Shown here: positions 6,014 to 28,596 of the stretch, in pieces
How the letters are laid out: each line of letters starts with the position of its first letter
How positions within the stretch are numbered: the stretch's first letter is position 1
DNA from: Thermoanaerobaculia bacterium
GTDB taxonomy: Bacteria > Acidobacteriota > Thermoanaerobaculia > Multivoradales > JAHEKO01
Assembly (NCBI GenBank): GCA_963781065.1
Contig: CAWAET010000004.1
Span: 139,093 to 203,092, forward strand
Reading direction: 5' to 3'
DNA length: 64,000 bases
Translations under genes and position numbers: made by a program
Notes under the pieces: model-generated
Seen by the model: the letters and a program-made list of their open reading frames with translations, nothing else
The model's database searches: none
What the model was told of the DNA's origin: nothing

Positions 6014-6574
6014 GGGCCGGGGCCGGGGCCGCTACGAGCCGCTGAGGTGTCGCCTCGTTCCGCTATCGCGCGTGGTGGTTTGGGCGATGAGCCCCAGCCG
6101 TCGCTCGAGGAGGGGAACGCGGCCGTGCCGTGCCGTTCGGCGCTCTTTTATGCTGCACGAGGCAACACCTCAGCGGCTCTTCGCTCCGGTGGTGGCCCAC
6201 GCAACCGGCAGGGGCGCCTGATCGCGGGCCGGTACTGCCCGCGTGGATCGTGACGCGGCCCGCGCGTATCGGTGGGAGGCGGCCCCAAACCGCGAGGGGG
6301 CGTAGGGAGGAAGAGGGGAAGTGCGTGTTGCTGAGAGCCGGAGAGGTGGCAGTACCGACGGCCTGGGCTGCGGCGCTGCCTTCCGGGCGGGCGGATGGCC
6401 ACGCTCAGGCCCAGTCAGCGTCTTGGCCGGGGCGAGCCCGGCCGGTTCTCGGGATTGGCGGCCGTCGCTGTAGGTCGGAGGCGATCGAAGCACGGCGACC
6501 TGGTCGGCTAACCCCGGAGGTCGGCGGCCACCGAAGCTCAAGCGGTCCGGCTCGCCACGCCGGAGGTCGGCGGC

Positions 6575-6736
6575 GGAGCCGAGAGGTGGGGGGTCTCAGG
6601 TAGCTCACGAGCAGCGCTACAGCACGAGCGACCGGAGGCCGCCACCGGTCCGGCGCGTCGCGAGTGCGCAGGCGAGGCGACGTTGATAGTCCGACTGAGC
6701 CGAGCCGGTACCTGGGACCCCCCACCTCTCGGCTCC
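6575..6736. repeat. 162-bp hairpin / MITE-like element with 21-bp perfect terminal inverted repeats (element E1)
   Basis: GGAGCCGAGAGGTGGGGGGTC (6575-6595) is the exact reverse complement of GACCCCCCACCTCTCGGCTCC (6716-6736). The stem extends 7 more bp after one mismatch. The reverse complement of the interior shares sequence blocks with element E3 at 27836-27990. Confidence 0.8.
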
Positions 6737-6930
6737 ATAGCCGACCGGCCCCAACACGCAGCCTCTCAGGCTACGCCTCCATCGCCGACCGGCCGCGTGC
6801 CGCGATGGAGCCGGCGCGCGGCCGATTTGGCACTCGGGCCCAGCCGCCGCCACCGGTAAGCTCCCGGGGACGGCCGTTGCAGCGGGCGTGGGCGCTGGCG
6901 CGACTCTTGAAGCAAGGTCGTCCAACGGCA

Positions 6931-6936
6931 AGGAGG
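6931..6936 (+). promoter_or_regulatory. Shine-Dalgarno (AGGAGG) of the alpha-2-macroglobulin gene
   Basis: AGGAGG lies 6 nt upstream of ATG 6943. Confidence 0.7.
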
Positions 6937-6942
6937 AGAGCG

Positions 6943-9900
6943 ATGGCAGAGACGGGCGGCGGGCGGACTCACAACGAGGGGGCCGGCGGCTATCGCTGGC
7001 AGTGGCGCGACGCGGTGATCGCCGCCCTGGCCCTGGGCCTGGCGGGGAGCCTGTGGTGGGCGTTCGGCGGCCGGGTCGAGCCGGCGCGGGACGAGGCGGC
7101 GGGCGCCGAGCAGGTCGGTCTCTTCGAGGTAGTGATCGACCGCGAGGGCCGGCAGTGGCTCGAACTGGTGTTCGACCGGCCGGTGCTCGCGGAGGGCGGC
7201 GAGGTGGGGGTCGGCGACGTCCTCGGTCAGCCGCCGGCGACCGTCGATCCGCCGCTCGGCGGCTCCTGGCGCTGGCGCGAGCGCAACGTGCTGCGCTTCG
7301 AGCCCAGTGGCGGCTTCGCGCCCGCCACCGCCTACGCCGTCGACCTGATCCCCGAGCGCTTCCTCGCCGCCGGGCAGAGCTTCGCCGGCGACACCGAGGT
7401 GGCGGTGAGGATCGACCAGTTCCTGGTCGAGGGGGTGGAGGTCTGGGAGGAGCCCGAGAGCGAAGGCGGCGCCGTGGTCCTGCGCGGCAACATCCGCTTC
7501 AACTACAACGTCGAGCCCGAGACGCTCGCCGGGCTCATCCGGCTCGAGGATCCGCGCACCGAGCAAGACCCGGAGATTCAGCTCGAGGCCGGTTGGCGCA
7601 ACCGTTCGATCCCCTTCCGCAGCACCCCGGTCGCCAAGGAGAAGCAGCCGCGCCAGGTCGTCCTGACGATCGACGCGGCGCTGACCCCGGCCGAGGGCAA
7701 CGTGCCGCTGGGCGAGACCTACGCGCAGCCGGTGCCGATCGGCTCGATCGAGGTGCTGGAGGTGCGCCAGCTGACCGCCACGCCGGGCCTCGGCACTTCG
7801 ACCCTGCGGCTGGTGCTTTCCTCCACCGTGGCCGCCGATCTCGCCGCCCCCTACCTGCACGTCGAGCCCGAGACCGCCTACCGGCTCTCCACGCTGCGCA
7901 ACTCGCTGGTCCTGACCGGCGCCTTCGAGCCCGGCGCCACCTACCGCGTGCGGCTCGACAAGGGGCTGCCGGCCGGCGACGGCGCCACCTTGCGCCAGGC
8001 CTACGACGCCCGGGTCCGGCTCGACAACCTGGCGCCGTCGGTGGCCTTCCAGAGCCAGGGGCTGTTCCTCTCCCGCGGCGGCCTGCGCAACCTGGCTCTC
8101 GAGACGGTCAACGTCGACCGGCTGAGCCTGGCGGTCGACCGGGTCTACCGCAACAACCTGTTCCTGCTCTTCCAGGGCCGCGGCGACTTCGACCAGGAGG
8201 AGGTCTACCCCGGCGGCGTCTGGCGGCCGCTGGGCGACCGGCTGTACGAGGAGACCGTCGCCGTCGCCGGCCAGCGCAACCGCAAGGCGACCACCGTGCT
8301 GTCGCTCGACGACTACGTCGACGCCGACGAGCCCGGCCTCTACCGCGTCCTGGCCGGCCGGCCCGATCACTGGCAGGCGCCGCAGCGCTGGGTGCTGGTC
8401 ACCGACCTCGGGGCGGTGGCCAAGCGGGGCGACGGCGAGTTTCTGGTCTGGGCGCTGTCGCACCGCACCCTGGCGCCGGTGGCCGGCGCCGAGGTGGAGC
8501 TGATCTCGGACCAGAACCAGGTGATCGCCCGCGGCACCACCGATGGCGAGGGGCTGTGGCGCTTTCGCGATGCCACCGCCCTGGCCGAGCACGAGCCGTT
8601 TCTGCTCACCCTGGCGCGGGGCGACGACTTCAGCTTCCTCTACCTCGACCGGATGCGGGTCGACACCACCGGCCTCGACGTGGGCGGCGCGGCGCGACCG
8701 GTCGACGGCTACAGCGCCTTCCTCTACGGCGAGCGCGATCTCTACCGCCCCGGCGAGACGGTGCGCGGCGTCGCCCTGGTGCGCGACGCCGGGCTGCGGC
8801 CGGCGCCGGCGATGCCGGCCCTGCTGCGCCACCGCGACTCGCGCGGCCGCGAGATCCAGGCCCGCCGCATCGAGCTCGACGGACGGGGGCTGGCCGAGTT
8901 CGAGTGGCCGATGCCGGCCTACGCCATGACCGGCCGGCAGAGCCTCGAGCTCGAGATCGCCGAAGTGGTGGTGGGCCGCTACGCCTTCCAGCTCGAGGAG
9001 TTCGTGCCCGACCGGATCAAGGTCGAGATCCGGCCCGGCGACGCCACGGCGGGACCCGGCCGGCCGCTGAGTTGGGACGTCGCCGGCGCCTACCTGTTCG
9101 GACCGCCGGCCGCCGGCCTGGCGGCGGAGACCCGGGTGCGGCTGGTCGACGACACCTTCTCCTCCGAGCGGTACCCGCGGTTCTCGTTCCGCAACGACGA
9201 GCACTCCTTCAGCGACCGCGAGGTCTTCAGCCAAGACGCCCGGCTCGACGGCGAGGGCCGGGCCGCTTTCGAGGTCGAGCTGCCGGCCGAGCGGCGGTTG
9301 CCCTCCTCGCTGGCGGCGGTGATCACCGCCCGCGTCCAGGAGCAGGGCGGGCGCGGCGTCACCGCCAGGACGCGCGTCGGCCTCGACCCCTATCCCTATC
9401 ATGTCGGCCTGCGCCGGCCGGCGAGCGGTTACCCCGACATCGGCCAGGAGGTCTCGTTCGACTGGGTGGCGGTAGCGCCCGACGGCTCCGACCACCCCAG
9501 CGGCGCGCTCGAGGCCGAGCTGATCCTCGACCGCTGGCAGACGGTGCTGCGTCGCACGCCGGCGGGCGGCTTTCGCTACCAGTCGACCCGCGAATCGGTG
9601 ACCGTGGAGCGGCGCAAGATCGGGGCCGGCGATGCCACCGGCACCGTCGCTTTCAGGCCGCAGCAGTATGGCAGCCACCGCGTGGTGCTCACCGACCCGG
9701 CCACCGGCGCCTCGGCGTCGGTCCAGTTCTACACCGGCGGCTGGGGCTACTCGCCCTGGGCCGTGGAGAACCCAGATCGGCTCGAGCTGGAGCTGGATCG
9801 CGACGAGTACCGGGCGGGCGAGACCGCCACCGTCCAGGTGCGGGCGCCCTTCCCGGGACGGCTGCTGCTGACCGTCGAGCAGGAGGAGATACTGGAGGTC

Positions 9901-12398
9901 CGCAGCTTCCGCCTGGAAGGCAACACGGCCACCATCCGGCTGCCGATGCGCGGCAGCTACCGGCCGAACGCCTACCTCACCGCCACCCTGGTGCGCGGCG
10001 TCGAGGCGATCGAGCCCGGCGCCGTGGGCCGCGCCTTCGGCGCCGTGCCGCTCAACGTCGAACGGGGCAGCAACCGGCTGGAGGTGACGCTCGAGGCGCC
10101 GGCCGAGCTGCGCTCGGCCAGCCGGCTGGAGGTGGCGGTGGCCAGCGCCCCCGGCGCCGCGGTCACCGTCGCCGCGGTCGACGAGGGGATCCTGCAGCTG
10201 ATCGCCCAGCGGACACCGGACCCGTTCGCCTTCTTCTACCGCAAGCTGCGGCTCGGGGTGCGGTCCTACGACACCTTCAGCCTGCTGCTGCCGGAGATCG
10301 AGGCGCCGGCGGCGGTCGGCGGCGGCGAGGGCGGGCCCGGCGAAGCCCAGTACGTCCGCAGCGAGTCGATCCGCCGGGTGAAGCCGGTGGCCTTCTGGTC
10401 GGGGGTGCTCGAGACCGACGCCAGCGGCCGCGCCCGGGCGGAGTTCCAGCTGCCCGAGTTCGCCGGCGCCGTGCGGCTGATGGCGGTGGCCAGCGACCGC
10501 GACCGCTTCGGCTCGGCCGAAGCCACGACCCGGGTGCGCGACCCGCTGGTGCTGACGCCCACCCTGCCGCGGATCCTCTCTTTCGGCGAGACCCTGGAGG
10601 TGCCGGTGACCGTGCGCAACGACACCGGCCGGCCGGGGCGGTTCGAGGTGGGTCTGACGGTCGCCGGCGCCGCCACCCTCTCGGGTGAGACGAGCGGCGC
10701 GCTCGAGCTGCCCGACGGCGCCGAGCGCACCGCCTGGTTCACCGTGGCGACCGGGCTCGAGGAGGGCTCGGTCCGCTTCGCCTTCAGCGCCAGCGGCAAC
10801 GGCGAGAGGGCCGCGGCCGAAGTCGCGGTGGACGTGCGGCCCGACCTGCCGCCCCAAGCCACCTCGCTCGGCGGTGCCCTGACCGACGCCGAGACCGAGC
10901 TGCCGGCCCCCGAGGCCGCCTTCCGGCAGGGCTCGGTCCGACGCCGGCTGCAGATCGGCTCGCTGCCGCTGGTCCGCTTCGGCCGCCAGCTCAGCGACCT
11001 CGTGCGCTACCCATACGGCTGCATGGAGCAGACCCTGTCGCGCGCCTTCCCGCTGATCTACCTCGAAGAGCTGGCGCAGGAGTTCGAGCCCGAGCTGCTC
11101 GATCCGGCAAAGGGGGGCACCGAGCCGGCAGCGCTGGTCGACGACGCCCTGCGGCGGGTGGCCTACCACCAGGTCGACGGCGGCGGCTTCGCGCTCTGGC
11201 GCGGCGGCCGCGAGCCGCACCCCTGGACCAGCGTCTACGCCAGCCACTTCCTGATCGAGGCGCGGCGCGCCGGCTACGCCACCGACCCGCAGCTCGAGTC
11301 GCGGGCGCTCGGCTATCTGCGCGGCCTGGTTCGGGCCAAGAACCGTTACGGCAGCGACGAGCTCGAGCGGGCGGTCTACGCCCTCTATGTGCTCAGCCGC
11401 GCCGGCGAGGCCGAGCTCGGGGTGATGGACTTCCTGCGCGAGCGCCAGTCGTCGAGCATGACCCGGGCGTCGCGGGCGCTGCTGGCGGCGGCCTACGCCG
11501 GGGTCGGCAACCGCGACGCGGTCGACGAGCTGGCCGCCGGGCTCGCGGACGTCGAGCGGGTCGAGCGCGACACCGGCCGCAACTTCCGCTCGACGGTACG
11601 CGACCGGGCGATGCTGCTAATGGCGCTCGAGGAAGCGGACCCCGAGAGCGCCGCCATCCCGGCGCTCGTGGAACGGCTGGGGCGCGACGCGAAAGGTATC
11701 TGGACCACCCAGGAGACCGCCTTCACCCTGATCGCCATCGGCCAGCTGGTTCGCCGCCAGCGCGACCGGCCGCCGTTCGCCGGCACGGTCTGGGTAGGCG
11801 ATCGCCGGTTGGGCCGGTTCACCAGCGACGAGACCGCGGTCTTCGACGGCATGGACGGCGCCGGCGCGGTGCGGATCGTCCTCGACGAGGGCTACCAGCC
11901 CGGCTCGGCCTTCTACACCCTGACCACCCGCGGCATTCCGCGCGACGCCGCCTACCGGCCGCTGGCCGAGGGGCTCGAGGTCGAGCGGTTCCTGCTCGAC
12001 CGCGACGGCCGCGAGATCGACCCGGACGCCGTCCGGCAGGGCGACCTGATCGTCGTCAAGACGCGCGTCCGCTCGGTCGCCGGGCCGGTCGACAACGTGG
12101 TGGTGCAGCAGCTCCTGCCCTCCGGCCTCGAGGTCGAGAATGCGCGCCTCGAGACCACCGAGACGCTGCCCTGGGTGACCGACGCCAACCTGGCGCCGGA
12201 CTCGGTCGATCTGCGCGACGACCGGGTGCTGGTCTTCACCAGCCTGCCGGCCGACAGCTGGCAGACGCTCTACAGCCTGACCCGGGCGGTGGCGCCGGGC
12301 AGCTTCCGGCTGCCGCCGGTCCACGCCGAGGCGATGTACAACCCGGCGCTGCGGGCGAGCGGGGCGAGCGCGGCGGGCTGGAGGTGGGCAGGCGTTGA
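6943..12398 (+). CDS. bacterial alpha-2-macroglobulin (YfhM/ECAM-type, thioester-containing), with an apparent 1-nt frameshift about 10 codons before the stop
   Basis: ATG 6943 sits behind the AGGAGG SD. N-terminal TM anchor AVIAALALGLAGSLWWAF. Thioester motif YPYGCMEQT (CMEQ at 11020-11031). The tail ...VHAEAMYNPALRA is typical of the family. The native-looking C-terminus GGLEVGRR* with TGA 12396-12398 is in the -1 frame. The track ORF 6664..14856 is off-frame read-through. Confidence 0.85.
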
Positions 12399-14953
12399 TG
12401 AACCGCGCAGTCCGTCGGTACTTCGCGACGGCCGGGCTTTGCTTGCGAATGGCCGGGCGCTTTATTGCCTGGGCCGGGCTTCGCCTCCGGGTAGCCCCCC
12501 GTCGCTCCGCTCAGTATCTTCATGCTCCGCTCTGGGGGGCTACCACTCCGGCTACGCCCTTCGATGGCGGTGCTCGGACCGGAATCGCTCCGGCTGCGCC
12601 CTCCGACAGGCGGCTCAGGGCCGCAGCCGGCGCCGTCGTTTCGCTCGTGGCGGTGCTCGTGGCTTCGGCGATGCTGCTGATCCTGGACCGGCTCTATCCG
12701 CCGCCGATCGAGGCGCTGACGCGGCCGGCGGCGGTGACGGTCCTGGGCGCCGACGGCGAGCCGCTGCGGCTCTTCCTGCCGGCGGACGATCGCTGGCGGC
12801 TGCCGGTCAACCTCGACGAGCTGCCGGCCGAGCTGCCGGCGGCGGTGATCGCCGCCGAGGACTCGCGGTTCTATCGCCATCCCGGGGTCGACCCGCTGGC
12901 CGTCCTGCGCGCCACCTGGCAGAACCTCCGCGCCGGGCGCGTGGTCTCGGGCGGCTCGACCCTGCCGATGCAGCTCGCCCGGCTGGCCGAGCCGGCCCCC
13001 CGCACCCTGGCCGCCAAACTGCGCGAGGCGGTGCGGGCGGTGCAGCTCGAGCGCCGGTTCTCGAAGCGCCAGCTGCTCGAGCTGTACCTCAATCTGGCGC
13101 CCTACGGCGGCAACCTCGAAGGGGTCGGGGCCGCCAGCCGCTTCTACTTCGGCAAGCAGCCGGCGGCGCTGTCGCCGGGGGAGATCGCCCTGCTGGTGGC
13201 GTTGCCGCGCTCACCCAACCTCTACGACCCGACCCGCGATCCCGATCGGCCGCCCAAGGCGGCGCTGGCGGTGCGGGACCGGGTGCTCGACCGGCTCCTC
13301 GAGGCCGGGGTGTTCGACGATCGCCAGGTGGCCGCCGCCCGCCGCCAGCCGCTGCCGAGGCGGCGGCAGCCGGTGCCGTTCATCGCCCCGCACTTCACCC
13401 GCTGGGCGGCGGCCCGATCGCCGGGGGAGACGCGGGTGGCCACCACACTCGACCGCTCGACCCAGCGCATCGCCGAGGCCCAGGTGACGCGGCAGGTTGC
13501 CGGGCTGCGGCGGCAGGGCATCGCCCAGGCGGCGGTGGTGGTGGTCGAGACCCGCGGCCGGCGCCTGCGAGCGCTGGTCGGCTCGGCGGGCTTCCTCGAG
13601 CCGGGGCGGGCGGGGCAGGTCGACGGCGCCCTGGCCCGCCGGTCGCCGGGCTCGACCCTCAAGCCGTTCCTCTACGCCCTGGCCGTCGACCGCGGCCTGA
13701 TCGTCCCCGACAGCTATCTGCTGGACGTGCCGACCGACTACGCCGGCTACGTGGCCGAGAACTACGACGGCCGATACAACGGCCGGGTGACGGCGCGCGA
13801 GGCGCTGCGCCGGTCGCTCAACGCACCGGCGGTGCGGCTGCTGGCGCGGGTCGGTCTGGGACCGTTCCGCGAGCTTCTCGAAAGCGGCGGCATCTCCACC
13901 CTCGACCGCCCCGCCGGCCGCTACGGGCTGCCCCTGGTGCTGGGCGCCGGCGAGGTCAGCCTGGTCGAGCTGACCAACCTCTACGCCACCCTGGCCGATG
14001 GCGGGCGCTACCTGCCGATCGCCTGGCGCGCGCCGGGGCGCGGCTCCGGTCGGCCGGCGGCAAGCGGCGGGCCAGCCCCCGGCGGCCGCCGCGCGGGCGA
14101 GCCCCTGCTGTCGCGCGAGACCACGCGGCTGATCACCGAGATCCTGCGCGGGGTGGAGCGGCCGGACCTGCCCGACGCCTGGCGGCTGGCGCGCGACGTG
14201 CCGGCGGTGGCCTGGAAGACCGGCACCTCCTACGGCCACCGCGACGCCTGGGCGGTGGGCTACTCCGGCCGCTACACGATCGGCGTCTGGGTGGGCAACT
14301 TCGACGGCGCGGCGCGGCAGGGCATCTCCGGCTCCCAGCACGCGGCGCCGCTGCTTTTCGACCTGTTCCGGGCGCTCGAGCCGGGCGGCGGCGAGACCGG
14401 CCGGTCGGCGGGTCTGCGCATCGAAAGCCTCGAGGTCTGCGCCCTGAGCCACCAACTGCCGGGCCCCTGGTGCCCGAGCCGGGTCCGGATCGACTACCTG
14501 CCGGGCCGGTCGAGGCTCGAGCGGTGCGACCACCACCAGCGGACGCGGGTCGCCGCCGGCGGCGGCGGCGGGCCGGCCTTCCGCCAAGTCACCCACTACC
14601 CCGCCGAACTGGTCGCCTGGTGGCGCAGCGAGGGGCAGGAGCCGCCCGCCGGCACCGCCGTGGCCGCGGCGACCAACCTGTCCGCGGGCGAGGTGCCGCG
14701 CATCGTCTCGCCCGACCGGGCGACGCCCTACCAACTGCGCCGCGACGCCCCTCTCGAGCACCAGCGCATCCCGCTCGTCGCCCACGCCGGGCTCGACGTG
14801 GACCGGCTCTACTGGTTTCGCGATGGGGTGCTGGTGGCCACCGCCGCGCCGGGTGAGCGCCGCTTTCTCGACCCCCTGCCCGGCAGCCACCGGCTGGTGG
14901 TGACCGACAACCGCGGCCGTTCGAACGGCATGGACTACGAGGTTCGGCCGTAG
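12398..14953 (+). CDS. pbpC: penicillin-binding protein 1C (bifunctional transglycosylase/transpeptidase)
   Basis: ATG 12398 overlaps the frame-0 TGA of the A2M gene (TGATG). GT51 motif AAEDSRFYRHPGVD. Transpeptidase motifs SPGSTLKP (SxxK) and WKTGTS. The classical A2M-PbpC gene pair. The N-terminal tail contains a repeat-element insertion. Confidence 0.9.
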   Translation: MNRAVRRYFATAGLCLRMAGRFIAWAGLRLRVAPRRSAQYLHAPLWGATTPATPFDGGARTGIAPAAPSDRRLRAAAGAVVSLVAVLVASAMLLILDRLYPPPIEALTRPAAVTVLGADGEPLRLFLPADDRWRLPVNLDELPAELPAAVIAAEDSRFYRHPGVDPLAVLRATWQNLRAGRVVSGGSTLPMQLARLAEPAPRTLAAKLREAVRAVQLERRFSKRQLLELYLNLAPYGGNLEGVGAASRFYFGKQPAALSPGEIALLVALPRSPNLYDPTRDPDRPPKAALAVRDRVLDRLLEAGVFDDRQVAAARRQPLPRRRQPVPFIAPHFTRWAAARSPGETRVATTLDRSTQRIAEAQVTRQVAGLRRQGIAQAAVVVVETRGRRLRALVGSAGFLEPGRAGQVDGALARRSPGSTLKPFLYALAVDRGLIVPDSYLLDVPTDYAGYVAENYDGRYNGRVTAREALRRSLNAPAVRLLARVGLGPFRELLESGGISTLDRPAGRYGLPLVLGAGEVSLVELTNLYATLADGGRYLPIAWRAPGRGSGRPAASGGPAPGGRRAGEPLLSRETTRLITEILRGVERPDLPDAWRLARDVPAVAWKTGTSYGHRDAWAVGYSGRYTIGVWVGNFDGAARQGISGSQHAAPLLFDLFRALEPGGGETGRSAGLRIESLEVCALSHQLPGPWCPSRVRIDYLPGRSRLERCDHHQRTRVAAGGGGGPAFRQVTHYPAELVAWWRSEGQEPPAGTAVAAATNLSAGEVPRIVSPDRATPYQLRRDAPLEHQRIPLVAHAGLDVDRLYWFRDGVLVATAAPGERRFLDPLPGSHRLVVTDNRGRSNGMDYEVRP
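12430..12606 (-). repeat. copy (reverse orientation) of the GC-rich interspersed repeat family, lying inside the pbpC 5' coding region
   Basis: gggccgggcttcgcctccggg is the exact reverse complement of cccggaggcgaagcccggccc, and ccactccggctacgccct is the exact reverse complement of agggcgtagccggagtgg, both from the units at 18.0 and 28.3 kb. It has an AT-rich core, cagtatcttcat. Confidence 0.8.
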
Positions 14954-17913: not shown

Positions 17914-17936
17914 GTGCGACTCCGGACGCCGGCCTG

Positions 17937-18238
17937 CCGGTGAGCGGCTGACGCCCCGCGAGGAGCGAAGCATAAACATGCAATAGCGAAGCGACCGCGG
18001 GGCGACCCGGAGGCGAAGCCCGGCCCACGTGCACCACCGGAGGGCGTAGCCGGAGTGGGCGCCCCCGAGGAGCGGAGCCTTGGCTGCGAGCGCAGCGACC
18101 GGGGAGCGACCACGCAGGCGAAGCCCGGCCCCGTACGCAAACCGGAGGGCGTAGCCGGAGTGGGCGCCCCGCGAGGAGCGAAGCATAAACATACGTAGCG
18201 AAGCGACCGCGGGGCGTCCCGTAGGCGAAGCCCGGCCC
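17937..18238 (+). repeat. tandem array (~2.9 units, period 105 nt) of the GC-rich repeat with an AT-rich core
   Basis: Unit starts CCGGAGGGCGTAGCCGGAGTGGGCGCCCC at 18037 and 18142. Each unit ends ..GGCGAAGCCCGGCCC. Two core types alternate (..GAGCGAAGCATAAACATGCAATAGCGAAGCGACC.. and ..GAGCGGAGCCTTGGCTGCGAGCGCAGCGACC..). Confidence 0.85.
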
Positions 18239-18261
18239 TATCGCGCAAGCGGCCGCATGCG

Positions 18262-27990: not shown

Positions 27991-28073
27991 TGACGCCGGC
28001 CTCCGTTAGTGGTAGCTGGCTGTCCCCGAGGCTGATCGTCGCAGGGTGGCCCCAGCCCGGCGCTGTGCACCGA

Positions 28074-28548
28074 CCGGAGAGCGTAGCCGGAGTGGGACGT
28101 GCCCGACGGCCGGGCTTCGCCTCCAGACCACCCCGTCGCTGCGCTCGCAGCCAAGGCTCCGCTCTCGGGGTGGTCGTTCCGGCTACGCCCTACGACCGTG
28201 CCAAGTACCGACCGTTCCAGAGCGCGACACCGCAGGGCGCAGCCGGAGTGGGCGCCCCGCGAGGAGCGAAGCATAAACATGCAATAGCGAAGCGACCGCG
28301 GGGCGACCCGGAGGCGAAGCCCGGCCCACTTGCACGACCGGAGGGCGTAGCCGGAGTGGACGCCCCCGGGGAGCGAAGCCTTGGCTGCGAGCGCAGCGAC
28401 CGGGGAGCGGCCACGCAGGCGGAGCCCGGCCCGTGGGCACGACCGGAGGGCGTAGCCTGAGTGGGCATCCCCCGAGGAGCAAAGCATTGGCTGCGAGCGC
28501 AGCGACCGTGGGGCGGGGGGGGGGCGACCCGCAGGCGAAGCCCGGCCC
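28074..28548. repeat. repeat array: 5' fragment, one inverted unit (28108-28194), then three direct units (starts 28233, 28338, 28443; period 105 nt)
   Basis: A 77-nt run (28253-28329) is identical to 17952-18028. The inverted unit is the reverse complement of the CTTGGCTGCGAGCGCAGC-core type. Confidence 0.85.
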
Positions 28549-28596
28549 AGTGCACGGACCTGGGGAACAGTCGGAGGAGACCCCAGCCTCGCCGGT

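What the first reader, a model, noticed from the sequence alone, without database searches (positions are those of the whole stretch)
12430..12606. Repeat-family element inserted in-frame in the cytoplasmic N-terminal tail of PbpC
**Start codon.** The only plausible pbpC start is ATG 12398. It is coupled as TGATG to the frame-corrected A2M stop. No in-frame ATG, GTG or TTG exists between the repeat and the TM helix except inside the helix.

**Effect on the protein.** From that start, the protein has a ~75-aa tail before the TM anchor AGAVVSLVAVLVASAMLLIL. PbpC tails are normally much shorter. Residues ~12-70 (..GLCLRMAGRFIAWAGLRLRVAPRRSAQYLHAPLWGATTPATPFDGG..) are encoded by a reverse-orientation copy of the interspersed repeat. 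That copy includes exact 21-nt and 18-nt matches to the units at 18 and 28 kb. The element is stop-free in this frame.

**Parallel.** This recalls Rickettsia palindromic elements, which insert in-frame into protein-coding genes. An alternative reading is that the element provides a regulatory RNA structure between the two genes of the operon.
Basis: partly seen in the sequence, partly recalled or inferred. Interest (0 to 1): 0.6.

Follow-up and report, generated by a model that had tools for sequence, protein, structure and literature searches.

The report
Repeat element read through into PbpC
A 93-base palindromic repeat that normally sits between genes lies, in this uncultured acidobacterium and three relatives, between the start codon and the membrane anchor of the cell-wall enzyme PbpC, so it is most likely translated as about 65 extra tail residues; this kind of fusion is already known from other bacteria.

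Summary
A full 93-nt unit of a genus-restricted, GC-rich palindromic repeat lies at 12471-12563 on the minus strand. The genome holds 48 copies at 30 loci. Unit fragments extend the block to 12430-12606.

Ten element-less orthologues have the A2M stop overlapping the pbpC start and a short tail. The window has about 200 extra bases there and no usable start codon between the element and the membrane helix.

New here: the same element sits at the same junction and in the same orientation in three other uncultured relatives. In all four a start codon overlaps the A2M stop and the frame runs in phase into the anchor.

The codon just after the element is GTG in one relative, GTC-GTG in another, GTC in the sister lineage and GAC here. 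The ancestral start probably lay there and has decayed. The pbpC body is still under purifying selection (dN/dS 0.28), so translation through the element is the only route to the protein.

The encoded peptide evolves near neutrally; the hairpin's paired bases are what is conserved. "Stop-free" is trivial in this orientation, and no other copy is intragenic.

This is a new member of a known kind. Translation itself was not shown.

The parts
6664..12401 (+). Bacterial alpha-2-macroglobulin gene. The 5' limit is the ORF opening; the true start was not determined.
   Evidence: Pfam hits to bMG3, MG2, bMG5, bMG6, A2M_BRD, A2M and bMG10. The frame runs on to 14856 as assembled because the stop is out of phase.
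12355..12373 (+). Site of the one-base frame defect at the A2M 3' end, probably an assembly indel.
   Evidence: The window has 2 nt more here than L193, L195 and G001, so it is one base short of a whole codon. The assembly holds at least 138 similar coding-to-shifted-frame run-ons.
12380..12386 (+). Shine-Dalgarno-like GGAGGTG upstream of the pbpC start. It also encodes L-E-V of A2M in the corrected frame.
   Evidence: Read directly. Conserved as ctggaggtgg in G001 and L193.
12396..12401 (+). TGATGA: tandem A2M stop codons in the corrected frame, overlapping the pbpC ATG at 12398-12400.
   Evidence: All ten orthologues compared have [A/G]TGA at this junction.
12398..14953 (+). pbpC (PBP1C) coding sequence as it must be read here, 851 codons.
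   Evidence: Open frame. Transgly, Transpeptidase and BiPBP_C domains. dN/dS 0.28 against L193 over 755 codons.
12430..12449 (-). Weak 3'-end fragment of a repeat unit.
   Evidence: nhmmer local hit to model positions 75-94, E 0.28.
12471..12563 (-). Full 93-nt repeat unit. It encodes pbpC residues 25-56.
   Evidence: nhmmer E 6e-14, 54.5 bits. Best matches to other copies are 81-86% identical.
12490..12544 (.). Central hairpin. The 11-bp perfect arms are GGTAGCCCCCC (12490-12500) and GGGGGGCTACC (12534-12544).
   Evidence: The arms are identical in L195 and L196. L193 has a compensatory A-T to C-G change.
12564..12605 (.). 42 nt (14 codons) found only in this lineage. It is a tandem duplication that repeats the unit's 5' end (12584-12605).
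   Evidence: A 42-nt gap in L193, L195 and L196. The copies CTCCGGCT[A/G]CGCCCT[T/C]CGA lie at 12546 and 12588.
12605..12607 (+). GAC codon at the position of the probable ancestral pbpC start.
   Evidence: The homologous codon is GTG in L195, GTC-GTG in L196 and GTC in L193. It lies 26 residues before the LD motif, against 24-30 from the start codon in element-less relatives.
12626..12685 (+). Membrane anchor AGAVVSLVAVLVASAMLLIL, the only hydrophobic segment.
   Evidence: The Kyte-Doolittle 19-residue window peaks at 2.72 here, against 1.07 at most in the tail. Coordinates.

Best explanation
**What the element is.** It belongs to an undescribed repeat family resembling REP elements (short extragenic palindromic repeats) or MITEs (miniature transposable elements). 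The unit is a 93-nt imperfect palindrome with four GCGNAGC motifs. It is often arrayed at a 105-nt period and is otherwise always intergenic.

**How it got here (inferred).** A copy landed at the A2M/pbpC junction in a common ancestor of this organism and at least three other uncultured Thermoanaerobaculia. In this orientation the unit almost never contains stop codons, and the net added length is a multiple of three. The start codon that overlaps the A2M stop is therefore in phase with pbpC through the element.

**What happens in this genome (inferred).** The start codon that probably lay just after the element has decayed (GTG to GTC to GAC). PbpC can then only be made by initiating at ATG 12398, coupled to A2M termination, and translating across the element. 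The result is a 76-residue cytoplasmic tail with net charge +11, instead of a few residues.

**What is under selection.** The added peptide is a near-neutral passenger. The element's hairpin is the conserved feature, which may reflect a nucleic-acid-level role at the operon junction.

**Shown versus inferred.** Shown: the anatomy, the comparison with orthologues and the substitution patterns. Inferred: that translation really starts at 12398, and any role of the hairpin.
For: **Family.**
- 48 copies at 30 loci.
- Found only in this genome and one congener among 41 relatives.
- No Rfam match, even at E up to 1.

**Element-less orthologues.** G001, G016, L198, L199, L200 and L201 all have a 4-nt stop/start overlap. 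The distance between fixed anchors is 352 nt in the window, 149 nt in G001 and 161 nt in G016.

**Shared insertion.**
- The same element at the same site and in the same orientation is present in L193, L195 and L196 (nhmmer E 2e-9 to 1e-12).
- In all four the frame is open and in phase from the overlapping start into the helix, giving 851, 836, 828 and 841 residues.
- Monophyly of the four carriers is not rejected (AU p 0.51).

**No alternative start.** The first in-frame start after the element is GTG 12647, which would leave only 12-13 hydrophobic residues.

**Selection.**
- The pbpC body has dN/dS 0.28 and dS 0.21 between the window and its sister L193. L193 also lacks a start codon directly after the element; its first one, a GTG, lies at the edge of the helix.
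- Tail dN/dS is 0.56-1.0.
- Variable unit columns by codon position are 12, 7 and 10, which is not significant. Unpaired columns vary in 21 of 44 cases and paired columns in 8 of 46 (Fisher p 0.003).

**Topology.** The tail is strongly basic and holds no second hydrophobic segment.
Against: - Translation was not observed.
- The assembly is rich in indel errors, and the element holds C6 and G6 runs.
- Two relatives (L195, L196) still have a GTG directly after the element. In them, and perhaps in the ancestor, the element could be an untranslated spacer.
- All clear tail indels are multiples of three (42, 63, 39 nt). They are also multiples or near-multiples of a 21-nt sub-period of the element, so they are weak evidence for a reading-frame constraint.
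- The A2M frame as assembled has no stop at 12396.
Confidence: 0.7

Rival explanations
1. The element is an untranslated intercistronic spacer here too. pbpC would then start at an unconventional or internal codon, for example ATC 12584 or GTG 12647. Alternatively it is no longer made, as a young pseudogene whose start codon was lost.
For: - L195 and L196 keep a GTG right after the element, and gene callers placed the starts of P0003 and P0004 downstream of it.
- Many other Thermoanaerobaculia have 130-240-nt non-coding spacers at this junction, with their own downstream starts.
- The tail peptide shows no purifying selection.
Against: - No ATG, GTG or TTG lies between the element and the middle of the helix in the window.
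- ATC 12584 has no Shine-Dalgarno sequence.
- A start at 12647 would leave a 12-13-residue hydrophobic stub with no basic flank.
- pbpC is intact, with all three domains. Its dN/dS against L193 is 0.28, and L193 likewise lacks a start codon directly after the element; its first one, a GTG, lies at the edge of the helix.
- The overlapping upstream start is kept in all four carriers.
Confidence: 0.17
2. The hairpin itself is the selected feature. It would be a functional RNA or DNA structure at the A2M/pbpC junction, for example one that sets the expression ratio of the two genes, protects the upstream mRNA or binds a protein. Read-through by ribosomes would be incidental. This reading is compatible with the best explanation. 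It differs only in what is maintained by selection.
For: - Orthologous units are 74-84% identical, while the flanking tail sequence is 43-61% identical.
- Against L195 the unit is 84% identical, above the roughly 68% third-position identity of the gene body, derived from the difference counts.
- Paired columns vary far less than unpaired ones (8 of 46 against 21 of 44, p 0.003).
- L193 has a compensatory stem change.
- All four copies fold to -42 to -52 kcal/mol.
- The stem variant GGTAGCCCCCC is unique to this locus in the genome, so gene conversion from other copies does not explain its retention.
Against: - There are only four sequences.
- Quasi-palindromes can be kept complementary by templated repair without any selection.
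- No U-tract follows the stem, so it is not an intrinsic terminator.
- Folding of the whole 281-nt region is not unusual (z -0.75).
- No function was tested.
Confidence: 0.35
3. The insertion is an assembly artefact: a repeat copy misjoined into the operon.
For: The assembly has many indel errors. Reads could not be consulted.
Against: - The copy is unique in sequence, 81-86% identical to its nearest paralogues.
- It lies inside a 930-kb contig.
- It is found at the same site in three independent assemblies from JGI, ENA and Logan.
Confidence: 0.02

Closest known systems
Rickettsia palindromic elements (RPEs)
   Same: Both are palindromic repeats of about 100-150 bp that can sit in phase inside a protein gene and add a peptide segment without destroying the protein (review PMC10969869).
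   Different: RPEs are intragenic as a habit of the family: nearly half of 44 copies in R. conorii lie in genes (PMC10969869). Here 1 of 30 loci is intragenic. The organism is an acidobacterium. No sequence relationship was tested. The extension is at the extreme N-terminus and probably arose through loss of a downstream start codon.
Mycobacterial interspersed repetitive units (MIRUs)
   Same: Both are GC-rich units of 40-100 bp with about 40-50 copies, often in tandem. Both lie between genes of an operon, carry open frames and have ends that overlap the stop and start of the flanking genes (PMC3184786).
   Different: MIRUs are described as carrying their own small frames that overlap the neighbours. 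Here the frame is fused to the downstream gene. The sequences are not related as far as tested.
REP/BIME elements of proteobacteria
   Same: Both are extragenic GC-rich imperfect palindromes that are clustered in arrays, lie downstream of genes and between operon genes, and are restricted to one lineage.
   Different: The unit is 93 nt rather than 20-40 nt. No RAYT (the Y1 transposase that mobilises REPs) is flanked by copies. One copy is translated.
Enterobacterial RU/ERIC, pneumococcal BOX and other small repeats fused to ORFs
   Same: These are small intergenic repeats with open frames that are occasionally found fused in phase to genomic ORFs, extending or interrupting proteins (PMC2759123, PMC3184786).
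   Different: The family and the phylum are different. Here the fusion is conserved across four diverged lineages (window against L195 and L196: dS 0.39-0.46).

Membership tests
Rickettsia palindromic elements | Palindromic interspersed repeat of about 100-150 bp | tested here: met
   The 93-nt unit folds as one long imperfect hairpin of -42 to -52 kcal/mol.
Rickettsia palindromic elements | Copies are frequently inserted in phase in many unrelated protein genes | tested here: not met
   Only the pbpC copy is intragenic. The other 29 loci are intergenic or lie upstream of a normal start codon.
Rickettsia palindromic elements | Sequence homology to RPE families 1-10 | not tested
   No RPE sequences were compared. 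Rfam gave no match of any kind.
REP/BIME | Extragenic, multi-copy, GC-rich imperfect palindrome, often clustered | tested here: met
   48 copies at 30 loci, with arrays of 2-4 units. They lie mostly between convergent or co-directional genes.
REP/BIME | Short unit of 20-40 nt with a conserved GTAG head | tested here: inconclusive
   The unit is 93 nt. It contains GCGTAGCC near its 5' end and three more GCGNAGC motifs.
REP/BIME | Cognate RAYT (Y1 transposase) gene flanked by the repeats | tested here: not met
   The genome has six Y1_Tnp matches. No family copy lies within 1.5 kb of any of them (best nhmmer E 0.28).
MITE | Terminal inverted repeats | tested here: inconclusive
   The ends GGGCGTAGCC and GGCGAAGCCC are imperfectly complementary and form the outer stem.
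MITE | Target-site duplication and a related autonomous insertion sequence | tested here: inconclusive
   Both flanks of the pbpC copy resemble a pbpC 5' end (GTGAGG-like), but not significantly. No parent insertion sequence was looked for beyond Y1_Tnp.
MIRU-like operon-junction repeats | Unit lies between genes of one operon, with an open frame whose ends overlap the neighbours' stop and start | tested here: met
   The start overlaps the A2M stop in all four carriers. However, the frame is fused to pbpC rather than ending before it.
PBP1C (PbpC) | Transglycosylase, transpeptidase and BiPBP_C domains behind an N-terminal membrane anchor, encoded next to a bacterial alpha-2-macroglobulin gene | tested here: met
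   Pfam PF00912, PF00905 and PF06832 on the pbpC product, and eight A2M-type domains on the upstream product. The single helix spans residues 77-96.

The most novel reading that the evidence does not exclude
The conserved hairpin is a host-selected structured module placed inside the first 60 codons of pbpC. It would be retained in four lineages since their common ancestor (window against L195 and L196: dS 0.39-0.46). It would tune how many ribosomes finishing A2M go on to make PbpC, or mark the mRNA for processing. A selfish repeat would thus have been domesticated as a translated intercistronic regulator of the A2M-PbpC envelope-defence pair.
Probability: 0.12. Interest if true: 0.55.

Novelty: new member of a known kind. 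Interest (0 to 1): 0.33.

Why it matters
This is a clean natural example of how a small selfish repeat can become part of a protein.

- The element landed at a stop/start overlap and happened to be open and in phase.
- It was then locked in when the original start codon decayed, while the enzyme stayed under selection.
- The case also shows that gene callers mis-start such genes. Two of the four carriers were annotated from codons inside or at the edge of the membrane helix.
- The A2M/pbpC junction appears to be a recurrent landing site for unrelated repeats in this class.

It does not change what is known about PbpC or about repeat biology in general.

Tried and rejected
- **Exact look-up.** Four possible PbpC N-termini were looked up in the protein collection. 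None is on record.
- **Metagenome scan.** The metagenome-contig scan gave nothing closer than 73% identity, and that hit was truncated.
- **RNAalifold on 26 copies.** MAFFT misaligned the variable central stem, so only the outer pairs were recovered. The stem was therefore compared by eye and on the four orthologous copies instead.
- **Test of the two flanks.** I asked whether the upstream or the downstream flank is the ancestral pbpC 5' end, using ungapped identity against in-frame background. The result was inconclusive.
- **RAYT link.** Rejected for lack of flanking copies.
- **Intrinsic terminator or promoter in the element.** No promoter was found. One weak, non-conserved terminator-like site lies at 12440-12459.
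- **"Stop-free frame" as evidence of selection.** Rejected.
Full report
**Setting**

- The window is contig C4:139093-203092 of a 4.9-Mb, 24-contig, 70% G+C genome.
- Named relatives of its PbpC are uncultured Thermoanaerobaculia (Acidobacteriota).
- The stretch in question lies between a bacterial alpha-2-macroglobulin gene and pbpC.
- The A2M product carries eight A2M-type Pfam domains. The pbpC product carries Transgly, Transpeptidase and BiPBP_C.

**Observation**

- A repeat search shows that 12454-12601 is reverse-complementary to the tandem arrays at 17.9-18.3 kb and 28.0-28.6 kb.
- An iterated nhmmer profile finds 48 copies of a 93-nt unit at 30 loci in the genome. In arrays the units follow at a 105-nt period.
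- The pbpC copy is a full unit at 12471-12563, minus strand (E 6e-14).
- A 22-nt copy of the unit's 5' end lies at 12584-12605, and a weak 3' fragment at 12430-12449.
- The longest exact matches to the arrays are 23 and 18 nt.

**The repeat unit**

- The unit is one long imperfect hairpin with four GCGNAGC motifs.
- Its central stem differs between subtypes in a complementary way: GCGCCCC/GGGGCGC, CCACCCC/GGGGTGG, TCACCCC/GGGGTGA, and TAGCCCCCC/GGGGGGCTA in the pbpC copy.
- Rfam has nothing like it, even at E up to 1.
- Among 41 related genomes the family occurs only here and in one congener.
- Six Y1-transposase homologues exist in the genome, but none is flanked by copies.

**Is the element extra sequence?**

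- In G001 (same genus) and G016 (same family) the A2M stop overlaps the pbpC start as GTGA or ATGA. About 25-30 residues then lead to the conserved LDRL-PPP motif.
- From a fixed A2M anchor to that motif the window has 352 nt, G001 has 149 nt and G016 has 161 nt.
- Four closer element-less relatives (L198-L201) have the same 4-nt overlap.

**The A2M frame defect**

- As assembled, the A2M frame has no stop and runs on to 14856.
- Against three relatives the window is one base short of a whole codon at 12355-12373.
- With that corrected, A2M ends ...GGLEVGRR at TGA 12396, followed by a second TGA. ATG 12398 overlaps both.
- A genome-wide scan found at least 138 open frames in which a coding-type composition runs straight into a shifted coding frame. 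Two that I read are a receiver domain and a threonine synthase, each split between frames.
- The assembly is therefore indel-rich, and the A2M defect is most simply one more such error.

**Is there another start?**

- In the pbpC frame the codons after the element contain no ATG, GTG or TTG until GTG 12647. That codon lies inside the helix at 12626-12685 and would leave 12-13 hydrophobic residues.
- ATG 12398 has GGAGGTG 12-18 nt upstream.
- From 12398 the tail is 76 residues, with 13 Arg/Lys against 2 Asp/Glu and no second hydrophobic segment. The usual N-in topology is therefore kept.

**Is "open in this frame" meaningful?**

- It is not. In the orientation found here, 140 of 144 unit-frames across the genome lack stops. 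In the other orientation the figure is 81 of 144.
- Four other loci have a long frame open through the element into a real gene. Each of those genes has an ordinary start after the element: a helicase, a methyltransferase, a signal-peptide protein and one more.
- Copies at three other co-directional junctions sit in true spacers.
- The pbpC copy is thus the only intragenic one. The family is not RPE-like in habit.

**New comparative evidence**

- A protein search restricted to residues 1-200 found closer relatives. Their contigs were then fetched.
- Three carry the same element at the same junction and in the same orientation:
  - L193/L194 (JGI), PbpC body 90% identical, nhmmer E 2e-9.
  - L195 (Logan), PbpC body 80% identical, nhmmer E 1e-12.
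  - L196 (ENA), nhmmer E 3e-12.
- In each a GTG overlaps the A2M stop, and the frame from it is open and in phase into the helix, giving 836, 828 and 841 residues.
- On a PbpC tree the four carriers and four element-less loci form one clade with 100/100 support and unresolved inner branches.
- A tree that holds the carriers together is as likely as the free tree (AU p 0.51). One gain is therefore sufficient.

**Where was the ancestral start?**

- Directly after the element the homologous codon is GTG in L195, GTC followed by GTG in L196, GTC in L193 and GAC in the window.
- From that codon to the LD motif there are 26 residues in the window and L193. L195 and L196 have 21, after a 15-nt deletion.
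- Element-less relatives have 24-27 residues from their Met, with the same basic Arg-Arg or Lys-Arg opening.
- This suggests that the element landed just upstream of the start, perhaps duplicating the GTGA junction, and that the original start decayed in the lineage of the window and L193.
- The upstream flank also resembles an ancestral 5' end. A simple identity test could not decide between the two flanks. I leave this point open.

**Is pbpC still in use?**

- Between the window and L193 the body of the gene has dN 0.058 and dS 0.209, giving a ratio of 0.28 over 755 codons.
- Neither of the two has a start codon directly after the element. The first one in L193 is a GTG at the very edge of the helix, with no basic flank.
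- Purifying selection since their split therefore implies that initiation at the upstream, A2M-coupled start works, and that the element is translated.
- This is an inference. No expression data were available.

**What is conserved in the element?**

- It is not the peptide.
  - Tail dN/dS is 0.56-1.0.
  - Variable columns in the unit fall 12, 7 and 10 on codon positions 1, 2 and 3 (p 0.52).
- The unit is nevertheless 74-84% identical between carriers, while the rest of the tail and the helix region are 43-61% identical.
- Variable columns are 21 of 44 among unpaired positions and 8 of 46 among paired positions (Fisher p 0.003).
- The 11-bp central stem is identical in three carriers and has a compensatory A-T to C-G change in L193.
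- All four copies fold to -42 to -52 kcal/mol.
- This fits either selection on the hairpin or templated self-correction of a quasi-palindrome. Four sequences cannot separate the two.
- Tail indels (42, 63 and 39 nt) are all multiples of three, but they also track a 21-nt sub-period of the element. They add little.
- The 42-nt one is a duplication of the unit's 5' end that is specific to the window.

**Comparison with what is known**

- Fusion of small repeats in phase with genomic ORFs is well documented for RPEs, ERIC/RU elements, BOX and others (PMC10969869, PMC3184786, PMC2759123).
- MIRUs are GC-rich units at operon junctions whose frames overlap the neighbouring stop and start (PMC3184786).
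- The present case works like these. It belongs to none of them by sequence or habit.

**Verdict**

- It is a new member of a known kind, of modest interest.

Noticed in passing
whole genome G000; e.g. C2:~43.6 kb and C13:~9.3 kb; window 12355-12373: At least 138 open frames run from a coding-type frame straight into a shifted coding frame without a stop. Two that I read are single domains split between frames. The assembly looks rich in single-base indel errors, so any frame-based claim in this genome needs care.
   Followed up: partly
L197:1010-1200 (GCA_041602915.1); also L021, L024, L028, L031, L033, L041, L080, L025, L027, L109, L113: Other Thermoanaerobaculia carry unrelated repeat-like inserts at the same A2M/pbpC junction. 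L197 has two tandem copies of a ~70-nt unit (GATCGGATCACCCCCCTCACCCTCGATCCC...), and several others translate as PLSQEGRGEGRERGAGG-type peptides. Spacers are 130-240 nt and pbpC has its own start downstream. The junction seems to be a recurrent landing site.
   Followed up: partly
window 6565-6602 and 6709-6746: A 38-nt inverted repeat (89% complementary, 106 nt apart) lies at the 5' edge of the A2M open frame. The operon therefore has a repeat at both ends of A2M.
   Followed up: no
all 48 copies; window 17928-18260 and 28054-28560: The unit length (93 nt), the array period (105 nt) and the indels at the pbpC locus (42 and 63 nt) are all multiples of 3, and several are multiples of 21. Each unit carries four GCGNAGC motifs. 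GCGAAGC is, from my own knowledge and not checked here, a known very stable DNA mini-hairpin.
   Followed up: no
G000 contig C4: 27 of the 48 copies lie on the 930-kb contig C4, which is 19% of the assembly. Many fall between 150 and 500 kb. Most loci lie between convergent genes or just after a gene's 3' end.
   Followed up: partly
G000 C16:40354-41430 and C4:525063-526280: Two nearly identical genes for Y1-transposase-like proteins of about 360-400 residues are each preceded by repeated AGRKCHPNGAR-coding sequence. Four further Y1_Tnp homologues lie elsewhere. None is next to the 93-nt family.
   Followed up: partly
window 12440-12459: A weak terminator-like hairpin followed by CTTTATT lies inside the pre-unit part of the insert. 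It is not conserved in L193, L195 or L196.
   Followed up: partly
L193:3001 and L196:1201: Public gene calls for the two nearest carriers start pbpC inside or at the edge of the membrane helix (MLAVAVFVW..., MRIAIGAL...). They leave a 197-227-nt gap after A2M that is in fact open and in phase from the overlapping GTG.
   Followed up: yes
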